Part shown: piece by piece, positions 1-8,551 of the stretch | How positions within the stretch are numbered: position 1 is the first letter of the stretch | How the letters are laid out: every line of letters begins with the position of its first letter | Assembly: GCA_000004985.1 (NCBI GenBank) | Contig: GG739060.1 | Length of the DNA stretch: 8,551 nucleotides | From: Naegleria gruberi | Taxonomy: Eukaryota | Reading direction: 5' to 3' (one strand) | The notes under the pieces: model-generated | What the model saw: only the letters and a program-made list of their open reading frames with translations | What the model was told of the DNA's origin: nothing | The model's database searches: none | Position numbers and translations under genes: made by a program

Positions 1-73
1 TTGATTATTCAAAGATACTACCATATTAGAAGCTTCAATAGCTGTAGAATTGAATAAAGTTTGAATTGACTTG

Positions 74-832
74 TCATCCACANGTTTTGAAAATTAAAAG
101 TAAAGTTGATTTCATGTCAGCAGTCTTGTTTTTAAATTCATTAATCACAGCTGAGTGACTTGGTTCATCAACATATCCTGTATAGACATGTTTCAACACC
201 ACAGCATTTGAACTTTCGAATAGAGAAGTGACCTTTCCAACAGCAATTAAAATATCAGTTGCCTTTGTACTAGCAGTTGCAAATGCAGCAATTGCAACAC
301 CTGCCAAAACCAACAAACCAATAACAGTAACCAACATTCCCAATAAACAAGCCAATTTCATTGAAGTCAACTCAACCACACCACAACATGTACGTAAAGT
401 AATTTTACTCTGACTAAATGAACTACCTGATTTACCACTTTCACTTGGTTGTCCAAAACCTACTTGAGATTGTCCAAGTTTCGTATTACCATTCACAGCA
501 CTACCAGATTGAATCGTAACTTGTTTCTTTCCATTACTATTATTATTAATATTATTACTACTATTACCAGTGATACTTGTTCCTCCATTTGTTTTGTTGG
601 GATTATTAGGATTGTTGGTAATGAATGTATTTGTGTTCGGTGGTGTAAATTGATATTGTTGATGTTGAGTGGTTGGTTGTTGTTGTTGTTGTTGTAGTGG
701 AGGAGATGATGAAGTTGAAGCCAATTCTATTGAAGTGGGGTTTGTTGTGTTAATAATATTGTTGGAATCATGACTGTTGGAGAGTATTATTGGTGGTGGA
801 GAGGTGGATGTCTCCGGAGAGGTTGTATTCAT
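74..832 (-). CDS. Hypothetical Ser/Thr/Pro/Asn/Gln-rich single-pass membrane protein of 252 aa. It has an N-terminal low-complexity region with a Q6 tract, a juxtamembrane Cys-Cys, one TM helix and a short C-terminal tail.
   Basis: The ATG is at 830..832 on the minus strand, directly downstream (in minus sense) of a >85% AT region at 833..1070. There is an uninterrupted 252-codon ORF to a TGA at 74..76. Gln is encoded by (CAA)6, seen as (TTG)6 at 677..694 on the plus strand, and Asn by AAT runs. A 28-residue hydrophobic stretch MKLACLLGMLVTVIGLLVLAGVAIAAFA is encoded at about 275..358, and RTCCG lies immediately N-terminal to it. Position 83 is an ambiguous base; the codon is ACN (Thr), so the frame is unaffected. 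The overlapping plus-strand ORFs 228..413 and 449..697 are antisense artefacts. Confidence 0.55.
   Translation of the reverse strand: MNTTSPETSTSPPPIILSNSHDSNNIINTTNPTSIELASTSSSPPLQQQQQQPTTQHQQYQFTPPNTNTFITNNPNNPNKTNGGTSITGNSSNNINNNSNGKKQVTIQSGSAVNGNTKLGQSQVGFGQPSESGKSGSSFSQSKITLRTCCGVVELTSMKLACLLGMLVTVIGLLVLAGVAIAAFATASTKATDILIAVGKVTSLFESSNAVVLKHVYTGYVDEPSHSAVINEFKNKTADMKSTLLLIFKXCG
677..694. repeat. (TTG)6/(CAA)6 trinucleotide microsatellite encoding Gln6 in the 74..832 gene.
   Basis: Six perfect tandem TTG units on the plus strand at 677..694, with a seventh at 673..675 after a 1-nt interruption. Confidence 0.9.
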
Positions 833-1070
833 GATAATGATAATTTAATAAATTATTATATATATATATTATTATTTGTATTATTATTATTAATCTAGAT
901 TTAAAAGATATATTTGATGATGATTTTATATTATTAAAATATAATAAATAAATATTTGATGATCATCGTGATGATGATGATGACGGAGATAAATCCGATG
1001 ATGATGGCGCGATTTTGTGTTGGTTTATACTGTTAAATATTAACTAAAAACCTACCACGAGTTTTATCTA
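833..1070 (-). promoter_or_regulatory. AT-rich 5' flank/promoter region of the 74..832 gene, containing (TA)n TATA-like runs.
   Basis: The region is >85% A+T, with 'tatatatatat' at about 859..870 and homopolymer/oligo-A/T tracts, immediately upstream (minus sense) of the ATG at 832. It is interrupted by the GAT-repeat/GC island at 958..1013. Confidence 0.4.
958..1013. repeat. Imperfect GAT/ATC trinucleotide tract ending in a GGCGCG island, embedded in AT-rich promoter DNA.
   Basis: The sequence is gatgatcatcgtgatgatgatgatgacggagataaatccgatgatgatggcgcg, with ggcgcg at 1006..1011. It is non-coding in context; no ORF reaches the track threshold. Confidence 0.6.
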
Positions 1071-1072
1071 TA

Positions 1073-1351
1073 TTGTTAAATGTTTGGCAGTTGTGCAATT
1101 ACTACTGTTGTGTTGTTGGTGTGTTGGCTTGGACTTTTCTTTGGAGTCTGACGAGGTTGTTGCATGTTGAATGGTTTGATAACCTAGAAGAGCATGGCTT
1201 GTCATTTTATGGACAGTTGATGGGAATTAAGTTTCGAATAAGTATGAGAAAGTTTGGGAATTGGTTTACTAATTGGACGGCAATGATGGATTGTGAAGAA
1301 TTTCGGATGAGATTTGTGAATGGCTTTTGCTTATTTGCATGTTTCGAATAA
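1073..1351. other. Compositionally anomalous non-coding block. It is G+T-rich and C-depleted on the plus strand, so CA-rich on the minus strand. It lies 240..520 bp upstream of the 74..832 gene. It is a candidate CA-rich regulatory region or ncRNA, and probably not a CDS.
   Basis: A+T is only about 60%, against >85% in the flanking intergenic DNA. Cytosine is roughly 8% of plus-strand bases. The track ORF 1073..1351 starts at TTG (there is no ATG), encodes a Trp/Cys/Phe-rich peptide atypical of the neighbouring genes, and has no third-position A/T bias. The minus strand reads ...ccaagccaacacaccaacaacacaacag... Confidence 0.35.
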
Positions 1352-1522
1352 TCGTGCAACTTTCTTCAAAAAAAAATAGATAAAGAAAGAGTCTAACAAA
1401 TCGAAACAGGTACCTGTTTAAAGAGTGTTATCATCGCAGTTATCTTTGGTACGATATTTGGATAAAAATCATTGTAGTTCGATTGTAATAAGTTTGTAAT
1501 GAATATTTCGAATACCAAATAA

Positions 1523-1528
1523 TTTATT
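1523..1528 (-). terminator. AATAAA polyadenylation signal for the 1537..1785 gene fragment.
   Basis: Plus-strand tttatt is AATAAA on the minus strand, 9 nt 3' of the TAA stop. Confidence 0.4.
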
Positions 1529-1536
1529 CTAAACCC

Positions 1537-1785
1537 TTATTGATATTTATGCAATTCAGGATCTTTCAACAACCTTTCCATGTGCTCTCTCCACAAACTC
1601 AATTGAATAACTAAACTACCCTTCTCAACACCTTCCACAATTTTGAACACGCCATCCAAAATTGTTGGAATTTCACCAACGAAAATTGGACTTTCGTTTG
1701 AGAATTTCAAATCGAATAGATTGAATGCAACCCATGAGGTGGCGAAAACATCAGTTCCAAATAGGACATGCATGTCTGATGGTCT
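1537..1785 (-). CDS. C-terminal 82 codons of a gene whose 5' portion lies in the assembly gap; product unknown.
   Basis: The minus-strand frame is open from the gap edge (1785) to a TAA at 1537..1539. It encodes ...RPSDMHVLFGTDVFATSWVAFNLFDLKFSNESPIFVGEIPTILDGVFKIVEGVEKGSLVIQLSLWREHMERLLKDPELHKYQ*, a balanced, globular-looking composition. An AATAAA polyadenylation signal lies on the minus strand at 1523..1528, 9 nt after the stop. The opposing plus-strand frame has no ATG until 1779, and the track's 'M' there is a TTG. Confidence 0.5.
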   Translation of the reverse strand, partial: RPSDMHVLFGTDVFATSWVAFNLFDLKFSNESPIFVGEIPTILDGVFKIVEGVEKGSLVIQLSLWREHMERLLKDPELHKYQ

Positions 1786-4700
1786 NNNNNNNNNNNNNNN
1801 NNNNNNNNNNNNNNNNNNNNNNNNNNNNNNNNNNNNNNNNNNNNNNNNNNNNNNNNNNNNNNNNNNNNNNNNNNNNNNNNNNNNNNNNNNNNNNNNNNNN
1901 NNNNNNNNNNNNNNNNNNNNNNNNNNNNNNNNNNNNNNNNNNNNNNNNNNNNNNNNNNNNNNNNNNNNNNNNNNNNNNNNNNNNNNNNNNNNNNNNNNNN
2001 NNNNNNNNNNNNNNNNNNNNNNNNNNNNNNNNNNNNNNNNNNNNNNNNNNNNNNNNNNNNNNNNNNNNNNNNNNNNNNNNNNNNNNNNNNNNNNNNNNNN
2101 NNNNNNNNNNNNNNNNNNNNNNNNNNNNNNNNNNNNNNNNNNNNNNNNNNNNNNNNNNNNNNNNNNNNNNNNNNNNNNNNNNNNNNNNNNNNNNNNNNNN
2201 NNNNNNNNNNNNNNNNNNNNNNNNNNNNNNNNNNNNNNNNNNNNNNNNNNNNNNNNNNNNNNNNNNNNNNNNNNNNNNNNNNNNNNNNNNNNNNNNNNNN
2301 NNNNNNNNNNNNNNNNNNNNNNNNNNNNNNNNNNNNNNNNNNNNNNNNNNNNNNNNNNNNNNNNNNNNNNNNNNNNNNNNNNNNNNNNNNNNNNNNNNNN
2401 NNNNNNNNNNNNNNNNNNNNNNNNNNNNNNNNNNNNNNNNNNNNNNNNNNNNNNNNNNNNNNNNNNNNNNNNNNNNNNNNNNNNNNNNNNNNNNNNNNNN
2501 NNNNNNNNNNNNNNNNNNNNNNNNNNNNNNNNNNNNNNNNNNNNNNNNNNNNNNNNNNNNNNNNNNNNNNNNNNNNNNNNNNNNNNNNNNNNNNNNNNNN
2601 NNNNNNNNNNNNNNNNNNNNNNNNNNNNNNNNNNNNNNNNNNNNNNNNNNNNNNNNNNNNNNNNNNNNNNNNNNNNNNNNNNNNNNNNNNNNNNNNNNNN
2701 NNNNNNNNNNNNNNNNNNNNNNNNNNNNNNNNNNNNNNNNNNNNNNNNNNNNNNNNNNNNNNNNNNNNNNNNNNNNNNNNNNNNNNNNNNNNNNNNNNNN
2801 NNNNNNNNNNNNNNNNNNNNNNNNNNNNNNNNNNNNNNNNNNNNNNNNNNNNNNNNNNNNNNNNNNNNNNNNNNNNNNNNNNNNNNNNNNNNNNNNNNNN
2901 NNNNNNNNNNNNNNNNNNNNNNNNNNNNNNNNNNNNNNNNNNNNNNNNNNNNNNNNNNNNNNNNNNNNNNNNNNNNNNNNNNNNNNNNNNNNNNNNNNNN
3001 NNNNNNNNNNNNNNNNNNNNNNNNNNNNNNNNNNNNNNNNNNNNNNNNNNNNNNNNNNNNNNNNNNNNNNNNNNNNNNNNNNNNNNNNNNNNNNNNNNNN
3101 NNNNNNNNNNNNNNNNNNNNNNNNNNNNNNNNNNNNNNNNNNNNNNNNNNNNNNNNNNNNNNNNNNNNNNNNNNNNNNNNNNNNNNNNNNNNNNNNNNNN
3201 NNNNNNNNNNNNNNNNNNNNNNNNNNNNNNNNNNNNNNNNNNNNNNNNNNNNNNNNNNNNNNNNNNNNNNNNNNNNNNNNNNNNNNNNNNNNNNNNNNNN
3301 NNNNNNNNNNNNNNNNNNNNNNNNNNNNNNNNNNNNNNNNNNNNNNNNNNNNNNNNNNNNNNNNNNNNNNNNNNNNNNNNNNNNNNNNNNNNNNNNNNNN
3401 NNNNNNNNNNNNNNNNNNNNNNNNNNNNNNNNNNNNNNNNNNNNNNNNNNNNNNNNNNNNNNNNNNNNNNNNNNNNNNNNNNNNNNNNNNNNNNNNNNNN
3501 NNNNNNNNNNNNNNNNNNNNNNNNNNNNNNNNNNNNNNNNNNNNNNNNNNNNNNNNNNNNNNNNNNNNNNNNNNNNNNNNNNNNNNNNNNNNNNNNNNNN
3601 NNNNNNNNNNNNNNNNNNNNNNNNNNNNNNNNNNNNNNNNNNNNNNNNNNNNNNNNNNNNNNNNNNNNNNNNNNNNNNNNNNNNNNNNNNNNNNNNNNNN
3701 NNNNNNNNNNNNNNNNNNNNNNNNNNNNNNNNNNNNNNNNNNNNNNNNNNNNNNNNNNNNNNNNNNNNNNNNNNNNNNNNNNNNNNNNNNNNNNNNNNNN
3801 NNNNNNNNNNNNNNNNNNNNNNNNNNNNNNNNNNNNNNNNNNNNNNNNNNNNNNNNNNNNNNNNNNNNNNNNNNNNNNNNNNNNNNNNNNNNNNNNNNNN
3901 NNNNNNNNNNNNNNNNNNNNNNNNNNNNNNNNNNNNNNNNNNNNNNNNNNNNNNNNNNNNNNNNNNNNNNNNNNNNNNNNNNNNNNNNNNNNNNNNNNNN
4001 NNNNNNNNNNNNNNNNNNNNNNNNNNNNNNNNNNNNNNNNNNNNNNNNNNNNNNNNNNNNNNNNNNNNNNNNNNNNNNNNNNNNNNNNNNNNNNNNNNNN
4101 NNNNNNNNNNNNNNNNNNNNNNNNNNNNNNNNNNNNNNNNNNNNNNNNNNNNNNNNNNNNNNNNNNNNNNNNNNNNNNNNNNNNNNNNNNNNNNNNNNNN
4201 NNNNNNNNNNNNNNNNNNNNNNNNNNNNNNNNNNNNNNNNNNNNNNNNNNNNNNNNNNNNNNNNNNNNNNNNNNNNNNNNNNNNNNNNNNNNNNNNNNNN
4301 NNNNNNNNNNNNNNNNNNNNNNNNNNNNNNNNNNNNNNNNNNNNNNNNNNNNNNNNNNNNNNNNNNNNNNNNNNNNNNNNNNNNNNNNNNNNNNNNNNNN
4401 NNNNNNNNNNNNNNNNNNNNNNNNNNNNNNNNNNNNNNNNNNNNNNNNNNNNNNNNNNNNNNNNNNNNNNNNNNNNNNNNNNNNNNNNNNNNNNNNNNNN
4501 NNNNNNNNNNNNNNNNNNNNNNNNNNNNNNNNNNNNNNNNNNNNNNNNNNNNNNNNNNNNNNNNNNNNNNNNNNNNNNNNNNNNNNNNNNNNNNNNNNNN
4601 NNNNNNNNNNNNNNNNNNNNNNNNNNNNNNNNNNNNNNNNNNNNNNNNNNNNNNNNNNNNNNNNNNNNNNNNNNNNNNNNNNNNNNNNNNNNNNNNNNNN

Positions 4701-6357
4701 NNNNNNNNNNNNNNNNNNNNNNNNNNNNNNNNNNNNNNNNNNNNNNNNNNNNNNNNNNNNNNNNNNNNNNNNNNNNNNNNNNNNNNNNNNNNNNNNNNNN
4801 NNNNNNNNNNNNNNNNNNNNNNNNNNNNNNNNNNNNNNNNNNNNNNNNNNNNNNNNNNNNNNNNNNNNNNNNNNNNNNNNNNNNNNNNNNNNNNNNNNNN
4901 NNNNNNNNNNNNNNNNNNNNNNNNNNNNNNNNNNNNNNNNNNNNNNNNNNNNNNNNNNNNNNNNNNNNNNNNNNNNNNNNNNNNNNNNNNNNNNNNNNNN
5001 NNNNNNNNNNNNNNNNNNNNNNNNNNNNNNNNNNNNNNNNNNNNNNNNNNNNNNNNNNNNNNNNNNNNNNNNNNNNNNNNNNNNNNNNNNNNNNNNNNNN
5101 NNNNNNNNNNNNNNNNNNNNNNNNNNNNNNNNNNNNNNNNNNNNNNNNNNNNNNNNNNNNNNNNNNNNNNNNNNNNNNNNNNNNNNNNNNNNNNNNNNNN
5201 NNNNNNNNNNNNNNNNNNNNNNNNNNNNNNNNNNNNNNNNNNNNNNNNNNNNNNNNNNNNNNNNNNNNNNNNNNNNNNNNNNNNNNNNNNNNNNNNNNNN
5301 NNNNNNNNNNNNNNNNNNNNNNNNNNNNNNNNNNNNNNNNNNNNNNNNNNNNNNNNNNNNNNNNNNNNNNNNNNNNNNNNNNNNNNNNNNNNNNNNNNNN
5401 NNNNNNNNNNNNNNNNNNNNNNNNNNNNNNNNNNNNNNNNNNNNNNNNNNNNNNNNNNNNNNNNNNNNNNNNNNNNNNNNNNNNNNNNNNNNNNNNNNNN
5501 NNNNNNNNNNNNNNNNNNNNNNNNNNNNNNNNNNNNNNNNNNNNNNNNNNNNNNNNNNNNNNNNNNNNNNNNNNNNNNNNNNNNNNNNNNNNNNNNNNNN
5601 NNNNNNNNNNNNNNNNNNNNNNNNNNNNNNNNNNNNNNNNNNNNNNNNNNNNNNNNNNNNNNNNNNNNNNNNNNNNNNNNNNNNNNNNNNNNNNNNNNNN
5701 NNNNNNNNNNNNNNNNNNNNNNNNNNNNNNNNNNNNNNNNNNNNNNNNNNNNNNNNNNNNNNNNNNNNNNNNNNNNNNNNNNNNNNNNNNNNNNNNNNNN
5801 NNNNNNNNNNNNNNNNNNNNNNNNNNNNNNNNNNNNNNNNNNNNNNNNNNNNNNNNNNNNNNNNNNNNNNNNNNNNNNNNNNNNNNNNNNNNNNNNNNNN
5901 NNNNNNNNNNNNNNNNNNNNNNNNNNNNNNNNNNNNNNNNNNNNNNNNNNNNNNNNNNNNNNNNNNNNNNNNNNNNNNNNNNNNNNNNNNNNNNNNNNNN
6001 NNNNNNNNNNNNNNNNNNNNNNNNNNNNNNNNNNNNNNNNNNNNNNNNNNNNNNNNNNNNNNNNNNNNNNNNNNNNNNNNNNNNNNNNNNNNNNNNNNNN
6101 NNNNNNNNNNNNNNNNNNNNNNNNNNNNNNNNNNNNNNNNNNNNNNNNNNNNNNNNNNNNNNNNNNNNNNNNNNNNNNNNNNNNNNNNNNNNNNNNNNNN
6201 NNNNNNNNNNNNNNNNNNNNNNNNNNNNNNNNNNNNNNNNNNNNNNNNNNNNNNNNNNNNNNNNNNNNNNNNNNNNNNNNNNNNNNNNNNNNNNNNNNNN
6301 NNNNNNNNNNNNNNNNNNNNNNNNNNNNNNNNNNNNNNNNNNNNNNNNNNNNNNNNN
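1786..6357. other. Assembly/scaffold gap: 4572 consecutive N.
   Basis: The sequence is literally n from 1786 through 6357. Track ORFs 1537..6474(-), 1643..6940(+) and 1725..6398(+) exist only because N-codons translate to X. Confidence 0.99.
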
Positions 6358-6358
6358 T

Positions 6359-6829
6359 TGTTTTAATGTGTTTAGAATTGATAGTAATGGTGATTTAATT
6401 CCTCCCTCCACCAAGTTCTCCCAAAGAAAATTAGAGTTTCTTTCTAATATTAAGGACTTTTTGATGAAAACCACAGGTGGAATGGCTCGTATTGGCTATC
6501 TTAGTAGGAAGGATCCAAGTGCTTCTGGTACTTGCTTTTATTTACTTCCCGATGTTGTAATTACCAACTCCCACGTTGTGAATACAGATCAAACCCCTTT
6601 CGTTTATAAAGGAACCTTTGAGGAAGCATCTAATGGTTATTTACAAAAGTTGAATCCTATTGAAAGAAAATTGCTCTTCTCTGGATCAGCCTTGCAGAAT
6701 GGAATAAGGAAATATAACCACTCCGTAACACGAGCACATTTCCCAAGTGTGGATGATGCTTATGTGGATCCAATACTTTCTTTGAGAGGAGATTTTGGAT
6801 ATCTGTGGAAATGTTTTTCCCGTATTTTT
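6359..6829 (+). CDS. Chymotrypsin-fold serine peptidase (Trypsin_2/HtrA-like): 5' exon(s) carrying the catalytic-His box. It is 5'-truncated by the gap and its 3' boundary is unresolved.
   Basis: The plus-strand frame is open from the gap edge. It encodes ...GMARIGYLSRKDPSASGTCFYLLPDVVITNSHVVNTDQTPF..., matching the G-[ST]-G-F...D...I-[IV]-T-N-[AS]-H-V-V His box of HtrA/DegP-type proteases. The His codon CAC is at 6572..6574. After about 6835 the frame translates into I/L/K/F/Y-rich AT-rich sequence typical of an intron (KEILNLILSEIKILFIILVLIDVFYKILFY*). The true donor site therefore lies somewhere in 6720..6850. Confidence 0.5.
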
Positions 6830-7222
6830 GCAATGCTCCTTACAAAAAAGGAAATATTAAATTTAATACTTAGTGAAATAAAAATATTATTTATTATTCT
6901 TGTTCTAATTGATGTTTTCTACAAGATTCTGTTTTATTGAATATCAGTTATTTGTATTAACCAAGAAAACATGCTCGTCTTACTACCACATATGAAAATT
7001 TTGAAATCACTTTTCTCGATAAGTAAAGAGCCAAATCCGTAACAAACTTGATATTATGATTGTTAACATAATTAATAATGACCATACGGTATGTTTCTCT
7101 AACATCCAGTGTTGTTATTGAGATATGCTTTGTTGAAGTTGAGTGAATTTGCTTAAGTAATAAATCGGTGTTATTGGCGCATCCAATTACCCCTACAGGT
7201 AAATCAGCTTTGGGAGCATTCC

Positions 7223-8035
7223 ATGTTTTTTGGGAGCATCACAAAAATGCGCCGAGAACCTGACCACAGATATATGGATGTTTCCTTGCACCAACTGAAA
7301 TACCTATCCAAGAATTTAGAAAAGTCAAAAGTACTAATGATACCGTGTCCTACACTCCTTCAAGTTTCGGATCTTGTCTTCACTATGCATTATCCAGGGA
7401 TCGAGGGATACCAATTTTCCAACCATAAAAGAGGAGAATGTGCAAACTATTTTAATTGGGCTCCCAACGACAATGTTGTTTCTAATTTGTTTCATGGTTT
7501 TGGAAAGCTATGTATTAGTACAGGTAAAGTATTGGCCCCATACGCAGAAATGAAAGATGAAAATGGAAACAATATTTGGGCTCCAAACACTTCACATCAA
7601 TACACATCTCTTAATTCTGATTTCCTTATAACAAATGAATCTGTAATGATGGGTTCTTCTGGTGGTTGTGTACAATCCCATGCTTGTGAGGTTGATGAGA
7701 TTAATGGTGTGACATTGGTAGAGTTTCACGCCATCCATTTTGGAGGCGAATTTGTTAAATGTAAGAATTGCTTAAAGCACATCAAACAACAAATGAATGT
7801 TAATGATGAATATCCATCTTTATTCCAAGGTTTACCTCGAGAATGGAACTTTTGCACAGATTGTCAAAATGGAATAGAACCTTCAAAAATGGTATACAAT
7901 TACTCTGTGTCTGTCCATCATCCATTGTTCAAACAGGTCTACAAGAAATTAATTTTGCCAGATTTGTTGAATGTGTTGAATATTGATTTGTCAGACAATA
8001 GATTAGAACGATTGAGACAATATTTAGATAGTTGA
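7223..8035 (+). CDS. Same serine peptidase gene: 3' exon carrying the catalytic-Asp box, the GSSGG catalytic-Ser motif, and a C-terminal Cx2C-(27)-Cx2C zinc-ribbon. The exon may begin upstream of 7223 (the frame is open from 7157; a candidate acceptor lies at about 7198 or 7207).
   Basis: This exon is in the same frame as the His exon (both phase 2). YMDVSLHQLKYL (Asp codon at 7278..7280) fits the hydrophobic-D-[IV]-[AS]-L-L-K-L Asp box. TNESVMMGSSGGCV (Ser codon at 7658..7660) is the GxSGG motif. It is followed by NGVTLVEFHAIHFGG, which fits the G-x-V-I-G-I-H-S-x-G substrate-pocket strand. CKNC is at about 7759..7770 and CTDC at about 7853..7864. The stop codon TGA lies at 8033..8035, and AATAAA signals follow at 8200..8205 and 8309..8314. 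Confidence 0.6.
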   Translation: MFFGSITKMRREPDHRYMDVSLHQLKYLSKNLEKSKVLMIPCPTLLQVSDLVFTMHYPGIEGYQFSNHKRGECANYFNWAPNDNVVSNLFHGFGKLCISTGKVLAPYAEMKDENGNNIWAPNTSHQYTSLNSDFLITNESVMMGSSGGCVQSHACEVDEINGVTLVEFHAIHFGGEFVKCKNCLKHIKQQMNVNDEYPSLFQGLPREWNFCTDCQNGIEPSKMVYNYSVSVHHPLFKQVYKKLILPDLLNVLNIDLSDNRLERLRQYLDS

Positions 8036-8199
8036 AAAGCTTCAAAGCTGCAGTCAGGTTGATTTGCATGCAATCTGAAATATGTCGCATGACTCAAGTG
8101 ATTATTCACCAATTCAATGAACAATATTCAATATTCGTGATTTGAATCAACAGCTTGATTAACAAGCTTATGAGAAACATAATGGTGGTGGAATTAATC

Positions 8200-8205
8200 A
8201 ATAAA
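8200..8205 (+). terminator. AATAAA polyadenylation signal candidate for the peptidase gene. A second candidate lies at 8309..8314 followed by A8.
   Basis: aataaa lies 165 nt after the stop at 8035. A second aataaaaaaaa lies at 8309..8319. Both are in the sense orientation. Confidence 0.35.
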
Positions 8206-8551
8206 TAGTTGAAAACACTGAGATGGAATGTAAACTATGGTCTATTTGTTATGTAATGGTGACTAGACAGTGTCAATTTCATCAAATTATTTCAAACTGA
8301 TTACATTCAATAAAAAAAACCATTCTATTCATCAAATATGTCATACAGAATGGCTTAACTGGTCTAAGCGCAAAAGAACACCTAAGAATGTTGCCCTAGA
8401 AGTCTACAAAGCACTAGCTCAGTGTGGGATACAAGCTTCACTATTAACAGGAAATACCTCTCTGCCTACCACTGGCAGGCTCAGTCTAATCAACCACTTA
8501 GCGTCACAAAGCACTTAAACGTGTCTCTCTGGTCTTTACGATACAAGAGAC

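What the first reader, a model, noticed from the sequence alone, without database searches (positions are those of the whole stretch)
8330..8551. GC-richer, structured 3' tail with tRNA-like box motifs and hairpins: a candidate SINE/tRNA-derived element or ncRNA
From about 8340 to the window end A+T falls to roughly 55%, which is unusual next to >80% AT intergenic DNA. No convincing ORF accounts for it. The track ORF 8270..8518 has no domain-like features. Within it, 8415..8429 'tagctcagtgtggga' is a near-perfect tRNA A-box/D-arm (TAGCTCAGTGG) with one inserted T. At 8352..8371 'ggcttaactggtctaagcgc' resembles the long D-loop of tRNA-Leu/Ser (GGTCTAAGGCGC). At 8462..8478 ctgcc-taccact-ggcag forms a 5-bp/7-nt-loop hairpin. 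Read on the minus strand this is tgcc-AGTGGTA-ggca, a canonical D-arm. At 8523..8551 gtctct...agagac is a 6-bp inverted repeat, cut by the window edge. None of these folds into a complete cloverleaf, which is what tRNA-derived SINEs, or tRNA-gene remnants targeted by TRE-type retroelements, look like.
Basis: seen in the sequence. Interest (0 to 1): 0.5.

Follow-up and report, generated by a model that had tools for sequence, protein, structure and literature searches.

The report
Broken LINE retrotransposon tail, Naegleria
The GC-richer last 210 bases of this small Naegleria gruberi scaffold are the dead, 5'-truncated 3' end of a multi-copy LINE (non-LTR retrotransposon), not a tRNA-derived element or a non-coding RNA gene, so the finding is ordinary.

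Summary
The tRNA, SINE and ncRNA reading fails. ARAGORN and Rfam find nothing. There is no B box, and the A-box-like match is at chance level. Neither strand folds better than shuffles.

Window 8345-8505 instead encodes, in two reading frames, the last ~65 residues of a multi-copy N. gruberi protein family (tblastn E 1e-18). Relatives of that family carry an apurinic-type endonuclease, a non-LTR reverse transcriptase and a CX2CX7HX4C knuckle. That is a LINE ORF2.

Homology begins abruptly at about 8339, where composition jumps, which indicates 5' truncation. The copy lacks the family's invariant CYKN motif through a ~28-nt frameshifting deletion.

The terminal inverted repeat at 8523-8551 is real and complete. 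It is conserved with the same fold in the 3' UTR of one diverged relative, and its 5' arm is present in a second. It is therefore probably the element's 3' stem-loop used in target-primed reverse transcription.

Verdict: a decayed LINE fragment at a scaffold end. Low interest.

The parts
8339..8419 (+). LINE ORF2 C-terminal coding remnant, reading frame +2 (…C-H-T-E-WLNWSKRKRTPKNVALEVYKALA). The 5' truncation point is at about 8339-8345.
   Evidence: tblastn aligns P0009 aa 200-223 to 8348-8419 at 92% identity, P0010 aa 374-398 to 8345-8419, and also P0008, P0015 and P0030. The DNA alignment with L004 and L005 loses similarity upstream of about 8339. Composition jumps at the same place.
8416..8505 (+). 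Continuation of the same ORF2 remnant, shifted to frame +1 (SSVW-DTSFTINRKYLSAYHWQAQSNQPLSV). The junction at about 8419 is a ~28-nt deletion that removes IYLENCYKN. A second, in-frame 12-nt deletion removes YNRP.
   Evidence: tblastn aligns P0009 aa 232-265 to 8416-8505 at 76% identity, joint E 1e-18. CYKN is invariant in the family alignment A1. The gaps are visible in DNA alignment A2.
8506..8522 (+). Degenerate end of the ORF and start of the element's 3' UTR. The consensus ends ...SVNP-stop. The window has no stop in frame +1 and a TAA at 8516-8518 in frame +2.
   Evidence: The C-termini of P0008, P0009, P0053, P0054 and P0055 all end PLSVNP or PLSINP.
8523..8551 (+). 3' UTR stem-loop of the LINE: GTCTCT-CTG-GTC-TTTAC-GAT-ACA-AGAGAC, with a 6-bp outer stem and a 3-bp inner stem. 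It ends exactly at the scaffold end.
   Evidence: It is 83% identical over 29 nt to L005 1277-1305, which lies about 16 nt after that copy's stop codon. L004 ends inside the same motif. The predicted dot-bracket is identical in the window and L005. All 5 differences lie outside the paired positions.

Best explanation
Window ~8339-8551 (+ strand) is the 3' end of a 5'-truncated, mutationally decayed copy of an apurinic-endonuclease-type non-LTR retrotransposon (LINE) of Naegleria gruberi.

**How the family works (inferred from known LINE biology):**
- An element RNA encodes an ORF2 protein with an endonuclease, a reverse transcriptase and a C-terminal Cys-His knuckle domain.
- The endonuclease nicks genomic DNA.
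- The reverse transcriptase primes on the nick and copies the RNA from its 3' end (target-primed reverse transcription).
- It probably recognises the conserved stem-loop in the short 3' UTR.
- Reverse transcription often stops early, which leaves 5'-truncated, dead-on-arrival copies.

**This copy:** It retains only the last ~55 codons, the 3' UTR hairpin and presumably a short tail that lies beyond the scaffold end. It inserted about 300 bp downstream of a protease-like gene. It later lost about 28 nt, which causes a frameshift and removes the invariant CYKN motif, then a further 12 nt, and also its stop codon. The fragment itself most likely has no function.

**Side effects of its origin:**
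- Its higher G+C reflects the composition of the element's ORF.
- Its multi-copy nature probably explains why the assembly ends here.

**Shown:** the homology, the family's domain content, the multi-copy status at protein level, the truncation and deletions, and the conservation of the hairpin in the closer relatives.

**Inferred:** the insertion mechanism, the role of the hairpin, and the reason for the scaffold break.
For: 1. A six-frame query of 8036-8551 hit only P0008, an N. gruberi protein.
2. tblastn gives two collinear matches in frames +2 and +1 to the extreme C-terminus of P0008 and P0009 (E 4e-17 and 1e-18). P0010, P0015 and P0030 also match.
3. The family comprises 44 clusters at 50% identity. 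It contains:
   - P0042, with Exo_endo_phos_2 (33 bits, above cut-off) plus RVT_1 (1.6e-33);
   - P0013 and P0014, with RVT_1 at 1e-37 to 1e-39;
   - P0057, with RVT_1 at 6.5e-28 contiguous with the very C-terminal domain that matches the window.
4. The reverse transcriptases of family members match solved R2 and LINE-1 ORF2p structures by sequence, at 1e-24 to 1e-11.
5. At least five near-identical copies of the C-terminal region lie on different N. gruberi scaffolds: P0008, P0009, P0053, P0054 and P0055. The more diverged P0017, P0019 and P0011 add to these.
6. DNA-level similarity to L004 and L005 covers the coding part and, in L005, the 3' UTR hairpin.
7. G+C of relatives' ORFs is 39-42%, against 44% for the tail and 34% for the scaffold.
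8. L005 is itself a short 5'-truncated copy next to an unrelated gene.
Against: - The N. gruberi genome could not be searched at DNA level. Copy number therefore rests on annotated proteins only, and no full-length consensus of the exact subfamily was seen.
- The 3' tail and target-site duplication lie beyond the scaffold end, so the insertion boundaries cannot be verified.
- P0008's own Pfam endonuclease hits are below the curated cut-offs, and its gene model lacks most of the RT. The LINE assignment relies on relatives.
- The hairpin shows no compensatory changes, so pairing is not proven. It is also absent from the distant relative L006.
- The hairpin pattern found no match in JGI metagenomes.
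Confidence: 0.9

Rival explanations
1. It is a short non-autonomous retroposon (SINE-like or 'tail-only' element) that shares the LINE's last ~210 nt and is mobilised in trans, rather than a truncated LINE copy.
For: The hairpin-bearing 3' end is the part a stringent LINE's RT would need. The fragment is short.
Against: The homologous part is about 165 nt of ORF2 coding sequence plus the UTR, with no distinct head. No tRNA, 5S or 7SL-like head or pol III boxes lie upstream. Upstream DNA is AT-rich unique intergenic sequence. 5' truncation is the commonest fate of LINE copies.
Confidence: 0.04
2. It is a tRNA gene remnant, a tRNA-derived SINE or a novel structured ncRNA.
For: There is an A-box-like 11-mer at 8415-8425 and small hairpins. 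G+C is elevated.
Against: ARAGORN finds 0 genes and Rfam finds 0 matches. The A-box match is expected by chance, and there is no B box. Fold z-scores are +0.71 and -0.67. Every motif lies inside sequence explained by LINE coding homology.
Confidence: 0.01
3. It is an exon or the 5' part of a host gene, for example the orthologue of the FOP_dimer gene that follows the protease gene in N. lovaniensis, or a domesticated LINE-derived domain.
For: In N. lovaniensis the next gene starts 285 bp after the protease stop on the same strand. An 82-codon open frame exists at 8270-8518.
Against: The frame has no ATG. There is no Pfam hit and no similarity to the N. lovaniensis or Willaertia loci. A frameshift is needed to follow the homology, and the invariant CYKN motif is deleted. 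No annotated N. gruberi protein other than LINE products matches any frame.
Confidence: 0.02
4. It is an assembly artefact: reads from a LINE copy elsewhere were wrongly joined to the unique 3' flank of the protease gene at the end of a low-coverage scaffold.
For: It lies at the very end of a tiny, gap-ridden scaffold with a 4572-N gap. A 97%-identical copy of the gene sits on another scaffold.
Against: The copy is distinctly diverged from the five annotated copies, at about 86% against at least 97% amino-acid identity, and has its own deletions. It is therefore not simply a read from one of them. The junction coincides with a clean composition change.
Confidence: 0.03

Closest known systems
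APE-type non-LTR retrotransposons (LINEs) such as human LINE-1, and 5'-truncated 'dead-on-arrival' LINE copies in general
   Same: The family has an N-terminal Exo_endo_phos-type endonuclease, an RVT_1 reverse transcriptase that matches LINE-1 ORF2p and R2 by sequence, and a C-terminal Cys-His knuckle (CX2CX7HX4C). It is multi-copy, and its copies are truncated at the 5' end. A chimeric gene model (P0055) also carries a weak RRM plus coiled-coil stretch upstream of the endonuclease, like an ORF1.
   Different: The clade was not determined. After the knuckle, the C-terminal domain has its own invariant CYKN..W motif with no Pfam family. Whether the 3' end is poly(A) is unknown. In L005 the hairpin is followed by only GTAAATAAAA.
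'Stringent-type' LINEs whose RT recognises a conserved 3' UTR stem-loop (eel UnaL2, R2). From my own knowledge of Kajikawa and Okada's work; not checked in a paper here.
   Same: A short 3' UTR carries a stem-loop close to the 3' end. The stem-loop is conserved between copies whose proteins are only about 60% identical, while the adjacent UTR is unalignable.
   Different: No functional test and no compensatory substitutions are available. The stem-loop is conserved only in the closer subfamily: two complete examples and one partial. It is absent in L006.
tRNA-derived SINEs, and Dictyostelium TRE elements that target tRNA genes
   Same: Only that a retroelement is involved.
   Different: There is no tRNA-related sequence, no pol III boxes and no tRNA gene anywhere on the scaffold. 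The organism is a heterolobosean, not a dictyostelid.

Membership tests
Non-LTR retrotransposon (LINE), APE type | The sequence is homologous to an ORF that contains a non-LTR-type reverse transcriptase | tested here: met
   The window matches the C-terminus of P0008, P0009, P0010 and P0015. The same C-terminal domain is contiguous with RVT_1 in P0057, P0013 and P0014 (6.5e-28 to 4e-39). These RTs match solved R2 and LINE-1 ORF2p chains. The RT itself is not present in the window, because the copy is truncated.
Non-LTR retrotransposon (LINE), APE type | Apurinic/apyrimidinic-like endonuclease N-terminal to the RT | tested here: met
   In relatives only. P0042 has Exo_endo_phos_2 at 33 bits (cut-off 27.4) plus RVT_1. 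P0018 has Exo_endo_phos at 28.4 bits (cut-off 24.5). The hits for P0008, P0011, P0016 and P0020 fall just under or at the cut-offs.
Non-LTR retrotransposon (LINE), APE type | Multiple dispersed copies in the genome | tested here: met
   At protein level only. Near-identical C-terminal regions lie on five different N. gruberi scaffolds, and more diverged members lie on three more. A DNA-level copy count could not be made.
Non-LTR retrotransposon (LINE), APE type | Variable 5' truncation with a common 3' end | tested here: met
   The window's homology starts at about 8339-8345 and runs to the 3' UTR hairpin. L005 is another short 3' fragment. This rests on two examples only.
Non-LTR retrotransposon (LINE), APE type | A 3' tail (poly(A) or simple repeat) and flanking target-site duplication | not testable with these tools
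   The scaffold ends at 8551, at the last base of the hairpin. The N. gruberi genome is not in any DNA collection that could be searched.
tRNA gene | Cloverleaf detectable by a tRNA finder or covariance model | tested here: not met
   ARAGORN finds 0 genes in the whole window. Rfam finds no tRNA-clan hit, even at E<=10.
tRNA-derived SINE | A tRNA-related head with internal pol III A and B boxes | tested here: not met
   The A-box-like match is at chance level (1 observed, 0.64 expected). No B box lies in 8330-8551 with up to 2 mismatches. The 'A box' lies inside LINE coding homology, at a deletion junction.
Structured ncRNA gene (any) | Folding energy or covariation beyond background, or a match to a known family | tested here: not met
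   z = +0.71 and -0.67 for the whole region. There are no Rfam matches. Only the terminal 29-nt hairpin is conserved, and that is as part of the LINE 3' UTR.

The most novel reading that the evidence does not exclude
The 29-nt stem-loop at the very end of the scaffold (GTCTCT...AGAGAC) may be the cis-acting 3' recognition element of a previously uncharacterised heterolobosean LINE lineage. That lineage has its own C-terminal 'CYKN' domain. This would make it a 'stringent' LINE able to mobilise tail-sharing non-autonomous elements in a genome otherwise almost devoid of transposons.
Probability: 0.3. Interest if true: 0.3.

Novelty: new member of a known kind. Interest (0 to 1): 0.12.

Why it matters
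It matters little for biology at large. The result turns an apparent 'tRNA-like structured element' into one more decayed LINE fragment.

It is useful locally in four ways:
- It shows that several N. gruberi 'predicted proteins' are LINE ORF2 products or chimeric models, not host genes (P0008, P0009, P0053, P0054, P0055, P0017, P0019, P0011).
- It explains a scaffold end.
- It points to a conserved 3' UTR hairpin and a family-specific C-terminal domain. Both could help annotate retrotransposons in Naegleria genomes, where recent surveys classify very few repeats (PMC12344493; bioRxiv 10.64898/2026.06.24.734286 reports 0.28% TE content).
- It illustrates that short A-box-like strings and 5-bp hairpins arise by chance or from conserved codons.

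Tried and rejected
**tRNA and ncRNA.** ARAGORN, Rfam at gathering score and at E<=10, pol III box scans and fold z-scores were all negative.

**Direct protein search with the 82-aa ORF.** There was no hit and no Pfam family. The match is split over two frames, so each piece alone was too short for a 5.8-billion-sequence search. It surfaced only when all six frames were queried together.

**Synteny.** I fetched the N. lovaniensis and Willaertia loci and considered that the tail was the start of the FOP_dimer gene orthologue. I rejected this because there is no blastn or tblastx similarity, no ATG and no FOP_dimer signal.

**Fetching N. gruberi DNA.** I tried to obtain the sister scaffold and other LINE copies. 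None of P0001, P0002, P0005, P0008 or the window ORFs is on record.

**Metagenome scans for more 3' ends.**
- The scan based on the protein alignment found 189 pattern matches, and tblastn confirmed none.
- The exact hairpin pattern found 0 matches.

**PDB sequence search with P0008 itself.** It gave nothing meaningful.

**Repeats within the window.** The tail shares nothing with the rest of the scaffold.

**Literature.** I found no paper in the library that describes N. gruberi LINE families.

Full report
**What the window is.** The window holds a single N at 83 and a 4572-N gap at 1786-6357.
- The ORF at 7223-8035 is 97% identical to a 433-aa Naegleria gruberi 'predicted protein' (P0001).
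- It is 53-54% identical to proteins of N. lovaniensis and Willaertia magna.
- A cluster look-up shows that the gene model of this very sequence (P0005 = EFC35706.1, NAEGRDRAFT_76638, 262 aa) sits on a contig of exactly 8551 bp.
- The window is therefore an entire small scaffold of the N. gruberi NEG-M assembly, and position 8551 is a scaffold end.
- The protease-like gene ends at the TGA at 8033-8035. All four homologues share the same C-terminus...RLRQYLDS.
- The finding therefore lies about 300 bp downstream of a gene, in otherwise AT-rich intergenic DNA.

**Checking the observation.**
- *Coordinates.* Every motif is at the stated coordinates.
- *Composition.* A+T of 8340-8551 is 55.7%. This is the GC-richest 212-nt window of the scaffold: 44.3% against a mean of 33.8% and SD of 4.6, rank 1 of 3559. 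The adjoining DNA is 72-78% A+T, not above 80%.
- *tRNA-like character.* This does not hold. ARAGORN finds no tRNA on either strand. Rfam finds nothing at gathering thresholds in the whole window. At E<=10 on 8200-8551 it reports four matches. Three lie wholly or mostly in the AT-rich DNA upstream of the element, and the fourth is a 13-bit chance match to a plant-virus pseudoknot model at 8529-8548. None is tRNA-like.
- *Pol III boxes.* The A-box consensus TRGCNNAGTGG with one mismatch occurs once, where 0.64 are expected. No B-box-like site falls in the region, even with two mismatches.
- *Structure.* The region does not fold better than dinucleotide shuffles on either strand, with z = +0.71 and -0.67.

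**What it is.** The 82-codon open frame at 8270-8518 had no Pfam family and no homologue when searched alone. A query made of all stop-free pieces of the other five frames of 8036-8551 hit one protein: P0008, an 856-aa N. gruberi 'predicted protein'.

tblastn shows why the first search failed. The homology is split between two frames.
- P0009 residues 200-223 align to 8348-8419 in frame +2 at 92% identity.
- P0009 residues 232-265 align to 8416-8505 in frame +1 at 76% identity.
- The joint E-value is 1e-18.
- P0008, P0010, P0015 and P0030 match the same place.
- These residues are the extreme C-terminus of the proteins.

**What the family is.** An exhaustive HMMER search with P0008 found 44 clusters at 50% identity.
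- P0042 (1113 aa) has Exo_endo_phos_2 at 33 bits, above its cut-off, plus RVT_1 at 1.6e-33.
- P0013 and P0014 have RVT_1 at 1e-37 to 1e-39, followed by the same C-terminal domain.
- P0057 has RVT_1 at 6.5e-28 contiguous with a C-terminus that aligns to the window, also at DNA level.
- Their RTs match solved R2 and LINE-1 ORF2p chains by sequence, at 1e-24 to 1e-11.
- The C-terminal domain starts with an invariant CX2CX7HX4C knuckle and contains an invariant CYKN..W motif.
- This is the ORF2 of an endonuclease-plus-RT non-LTR retrotransposon.

**Copy number.** The family is multi-copy in N. gruberi.
- Near-identical C-terminal regions occur in P0008, P0009, P0053, P0054 and P0055, on five different scaffolds.
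- More diverged members (P0017, P0019, P0011) lie on three more scaffolds.

**Anatomy of the copy in the window.**
- *5' end.* Homology begins at about 8339-8345: window C-H-T-E-W against family C-(S/T)-R-(N/T)-D-W. Nothing upstream aligns at protein or DNA level. This coincides with the composition jump. That is the signature of a 5'-truncated insertion.
- *First deletion.* Relative to the N. gruberi copies, the window lacks residues 224-232 (IYLENCYKN) plus one base, about 28 nt. This shifts the frame and removes the invariant CYKN.
- *Second deletion.* A second gap removes YNRP (12 nt).
- *Stop codon.* The consensus stop after ...SVNP is not present in frame +1.
- *Divergence.* Over the 58 aligned residues the copy is about 86% identical to the others, which are at least 97% alike. 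It is an older, decayed copy.
- *The 8462-8478 hairpin.* It is built from the conserved codons Ser-Ala...(Arg/Trp)-Gln and recurs in L005 for that reason.
- *The 'Leu/Ser D-loop' at 8352-8371.* It is simply the codons for W-L-N-W-S-K-R.

**The terminal inverted repeat.** Two relatives could be fetched as DNA: L005 (a Logan assembly, carrying P0015) and L004 (an ENA contig, carrying P0057). Their proteins are about 60% identical to the N. gruberi copies.
- In L005, about 16 nt after the stop codon, lies GTCTCTAAGGTCGTTATGATATAAGAGAC. It is 83% identical to window 8523-8551.
- The UTR between the stop and this motif is unalignable.
- L004 ends inside the same motif, with its 5' arm present.
- Both complete copies are predicted to fold into the same 6-bp plus 3-bp stem-loop.
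- All five differences fall in unpaired positions.
- In L005 the hairpin is followed by GTAAATAAAA and then AT-rich flank, so the element ends a few bases after the hairpin.
- A distant subfamily member (L006) keeps ...GTAAAGAGAC about 60 nt after its stop but has no matching 5' arm.
- The repeat is therefore a conserved feature of the element's 3' UTR in the closer subfamily. No compensatory change was seen, so pairing is plausible but unproven.

**Mechanism.** By analogy with established LINE biology, ORF2p nicks the target and reverse-transcribes its RNA from the 3' end. It probably recognises the 3' stem-loop, as in stringent-type LINEs such as UnaL2 and R2 (the analogy comes from my own knowledge). 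Early termination produced this ~210-nt dead copy, and later deletions degraded it. The fragment most likely does nothing now. Its G+C reflects the composition of the element's ORF, which is 39-42% in relatives. Its repetitiveness is a likely reason for the scaffold ending here, which is an inference.

**Limits.**
- The N. gruberi genome could not be searched at DNA level.
- Copy number, the exact 5' junction, the tail and the target-site duplication are therefore untested.
- Metagenome scans added nothing.
- The LINE clade was not determined.

**Verdict.** Structure and tRNA-likeness are not supported. The feature is an ordinary truncated LINE copy: a new member of a known kind and of low interest. 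The conserved 3' hairpin and the unannotated LINE family are small, useful annotation points.

Noticed in passing
window 6803-7273: A ~470-bp insertion interrupts the protease-like ORF. It is absent from the 97.5-98% identical ENA contig L003 and from protein P0001. It has 55-nt imperfect terminal inverted repeats (6799-6853 / 7219-7273, 73% complementary; ends CTGTGG...CCACAG). It is flanked by a duplicated TA/ATAT. No GT-AG register reproduces the L003 junction. It looks like a MITE-like DNA-transposon insertion polymorphism. It explains why the gene model on this scaffold (P0005) is only 262 aa and starts inside the insert at 7247.
   Followed up: partly
window 1-8551 (whole): The window is a complete 8551-bp N. 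gruberi scaffold with a 4572-N gap (1786-6357) and one N at 83. A 97%-identical copy of the protease-like gene (P0001, EFC36022.1) lies on a separate 20,478-bp scaffold, so this scaffold may be an alternative haplotype or a recent duplicate.
   Followed up: partly
L003 (ENA ERZ929261, contig k127_483820, 1419 nt): A 'metagenome' contig from run ERR1078381 (PRJEB11402) carries an uninterrupted 433-aa version of the protease-like gene. It is 97.5-98% identical to the window. A close relative of N. gruberi NEG-M was therefore present in that sample.
   Followed up: no
protein P0055 (N. gruberi EFC41040.1, 1920 aa): This is a chimeric gene model. An EGF/teneurin-repeat host protein is fused to LINE sequence. 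The LINE part comprises a weak RRM plus a coiled-coil stretch that resembles an ORF1, then the endonuclease, a gutted RT and the C-terminal domain. Several other N. gruberi 'predicted proteins' (P0008, P0009, P0053, P0054, P0017, P0019, P0011) are LINE fragments annotated as genes.
   Followed up: partly
L005 755-1320 (Logan SRR26902778): This is another short 5'-truncated copy of the same LINE family: a 168-aa ORF remnant, the 3' hairpin and GTAAATAAAA. It sits next to an unrelated minus-strand gene in an unidentified organism's assembly.
   Followed up: partly
protein cluster of P0001 (member P0006): A 48-aa Streptosporangium 'hypothetical protein' (WP_329092644.1) is listed in the same 90%-identity cluster as the Naegleria protease-like protein. 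It has no visible sequence similarity to it, so this is apparently a clustering artefact of the database.
   Followed up: yes
window 6358-8035 and proteins P0001-P0004: The neighbouring gene family is Naegleria/Willaertia-specific among the hits found. It has a trypsin-like His motif (TNSHV) and a GSSGG motif, but only sub-threshold Pfam Trypsin_2 similarity (13 bits). UniRef names the N. lovaniensis member 'Serine protease'.
   Followed up: no
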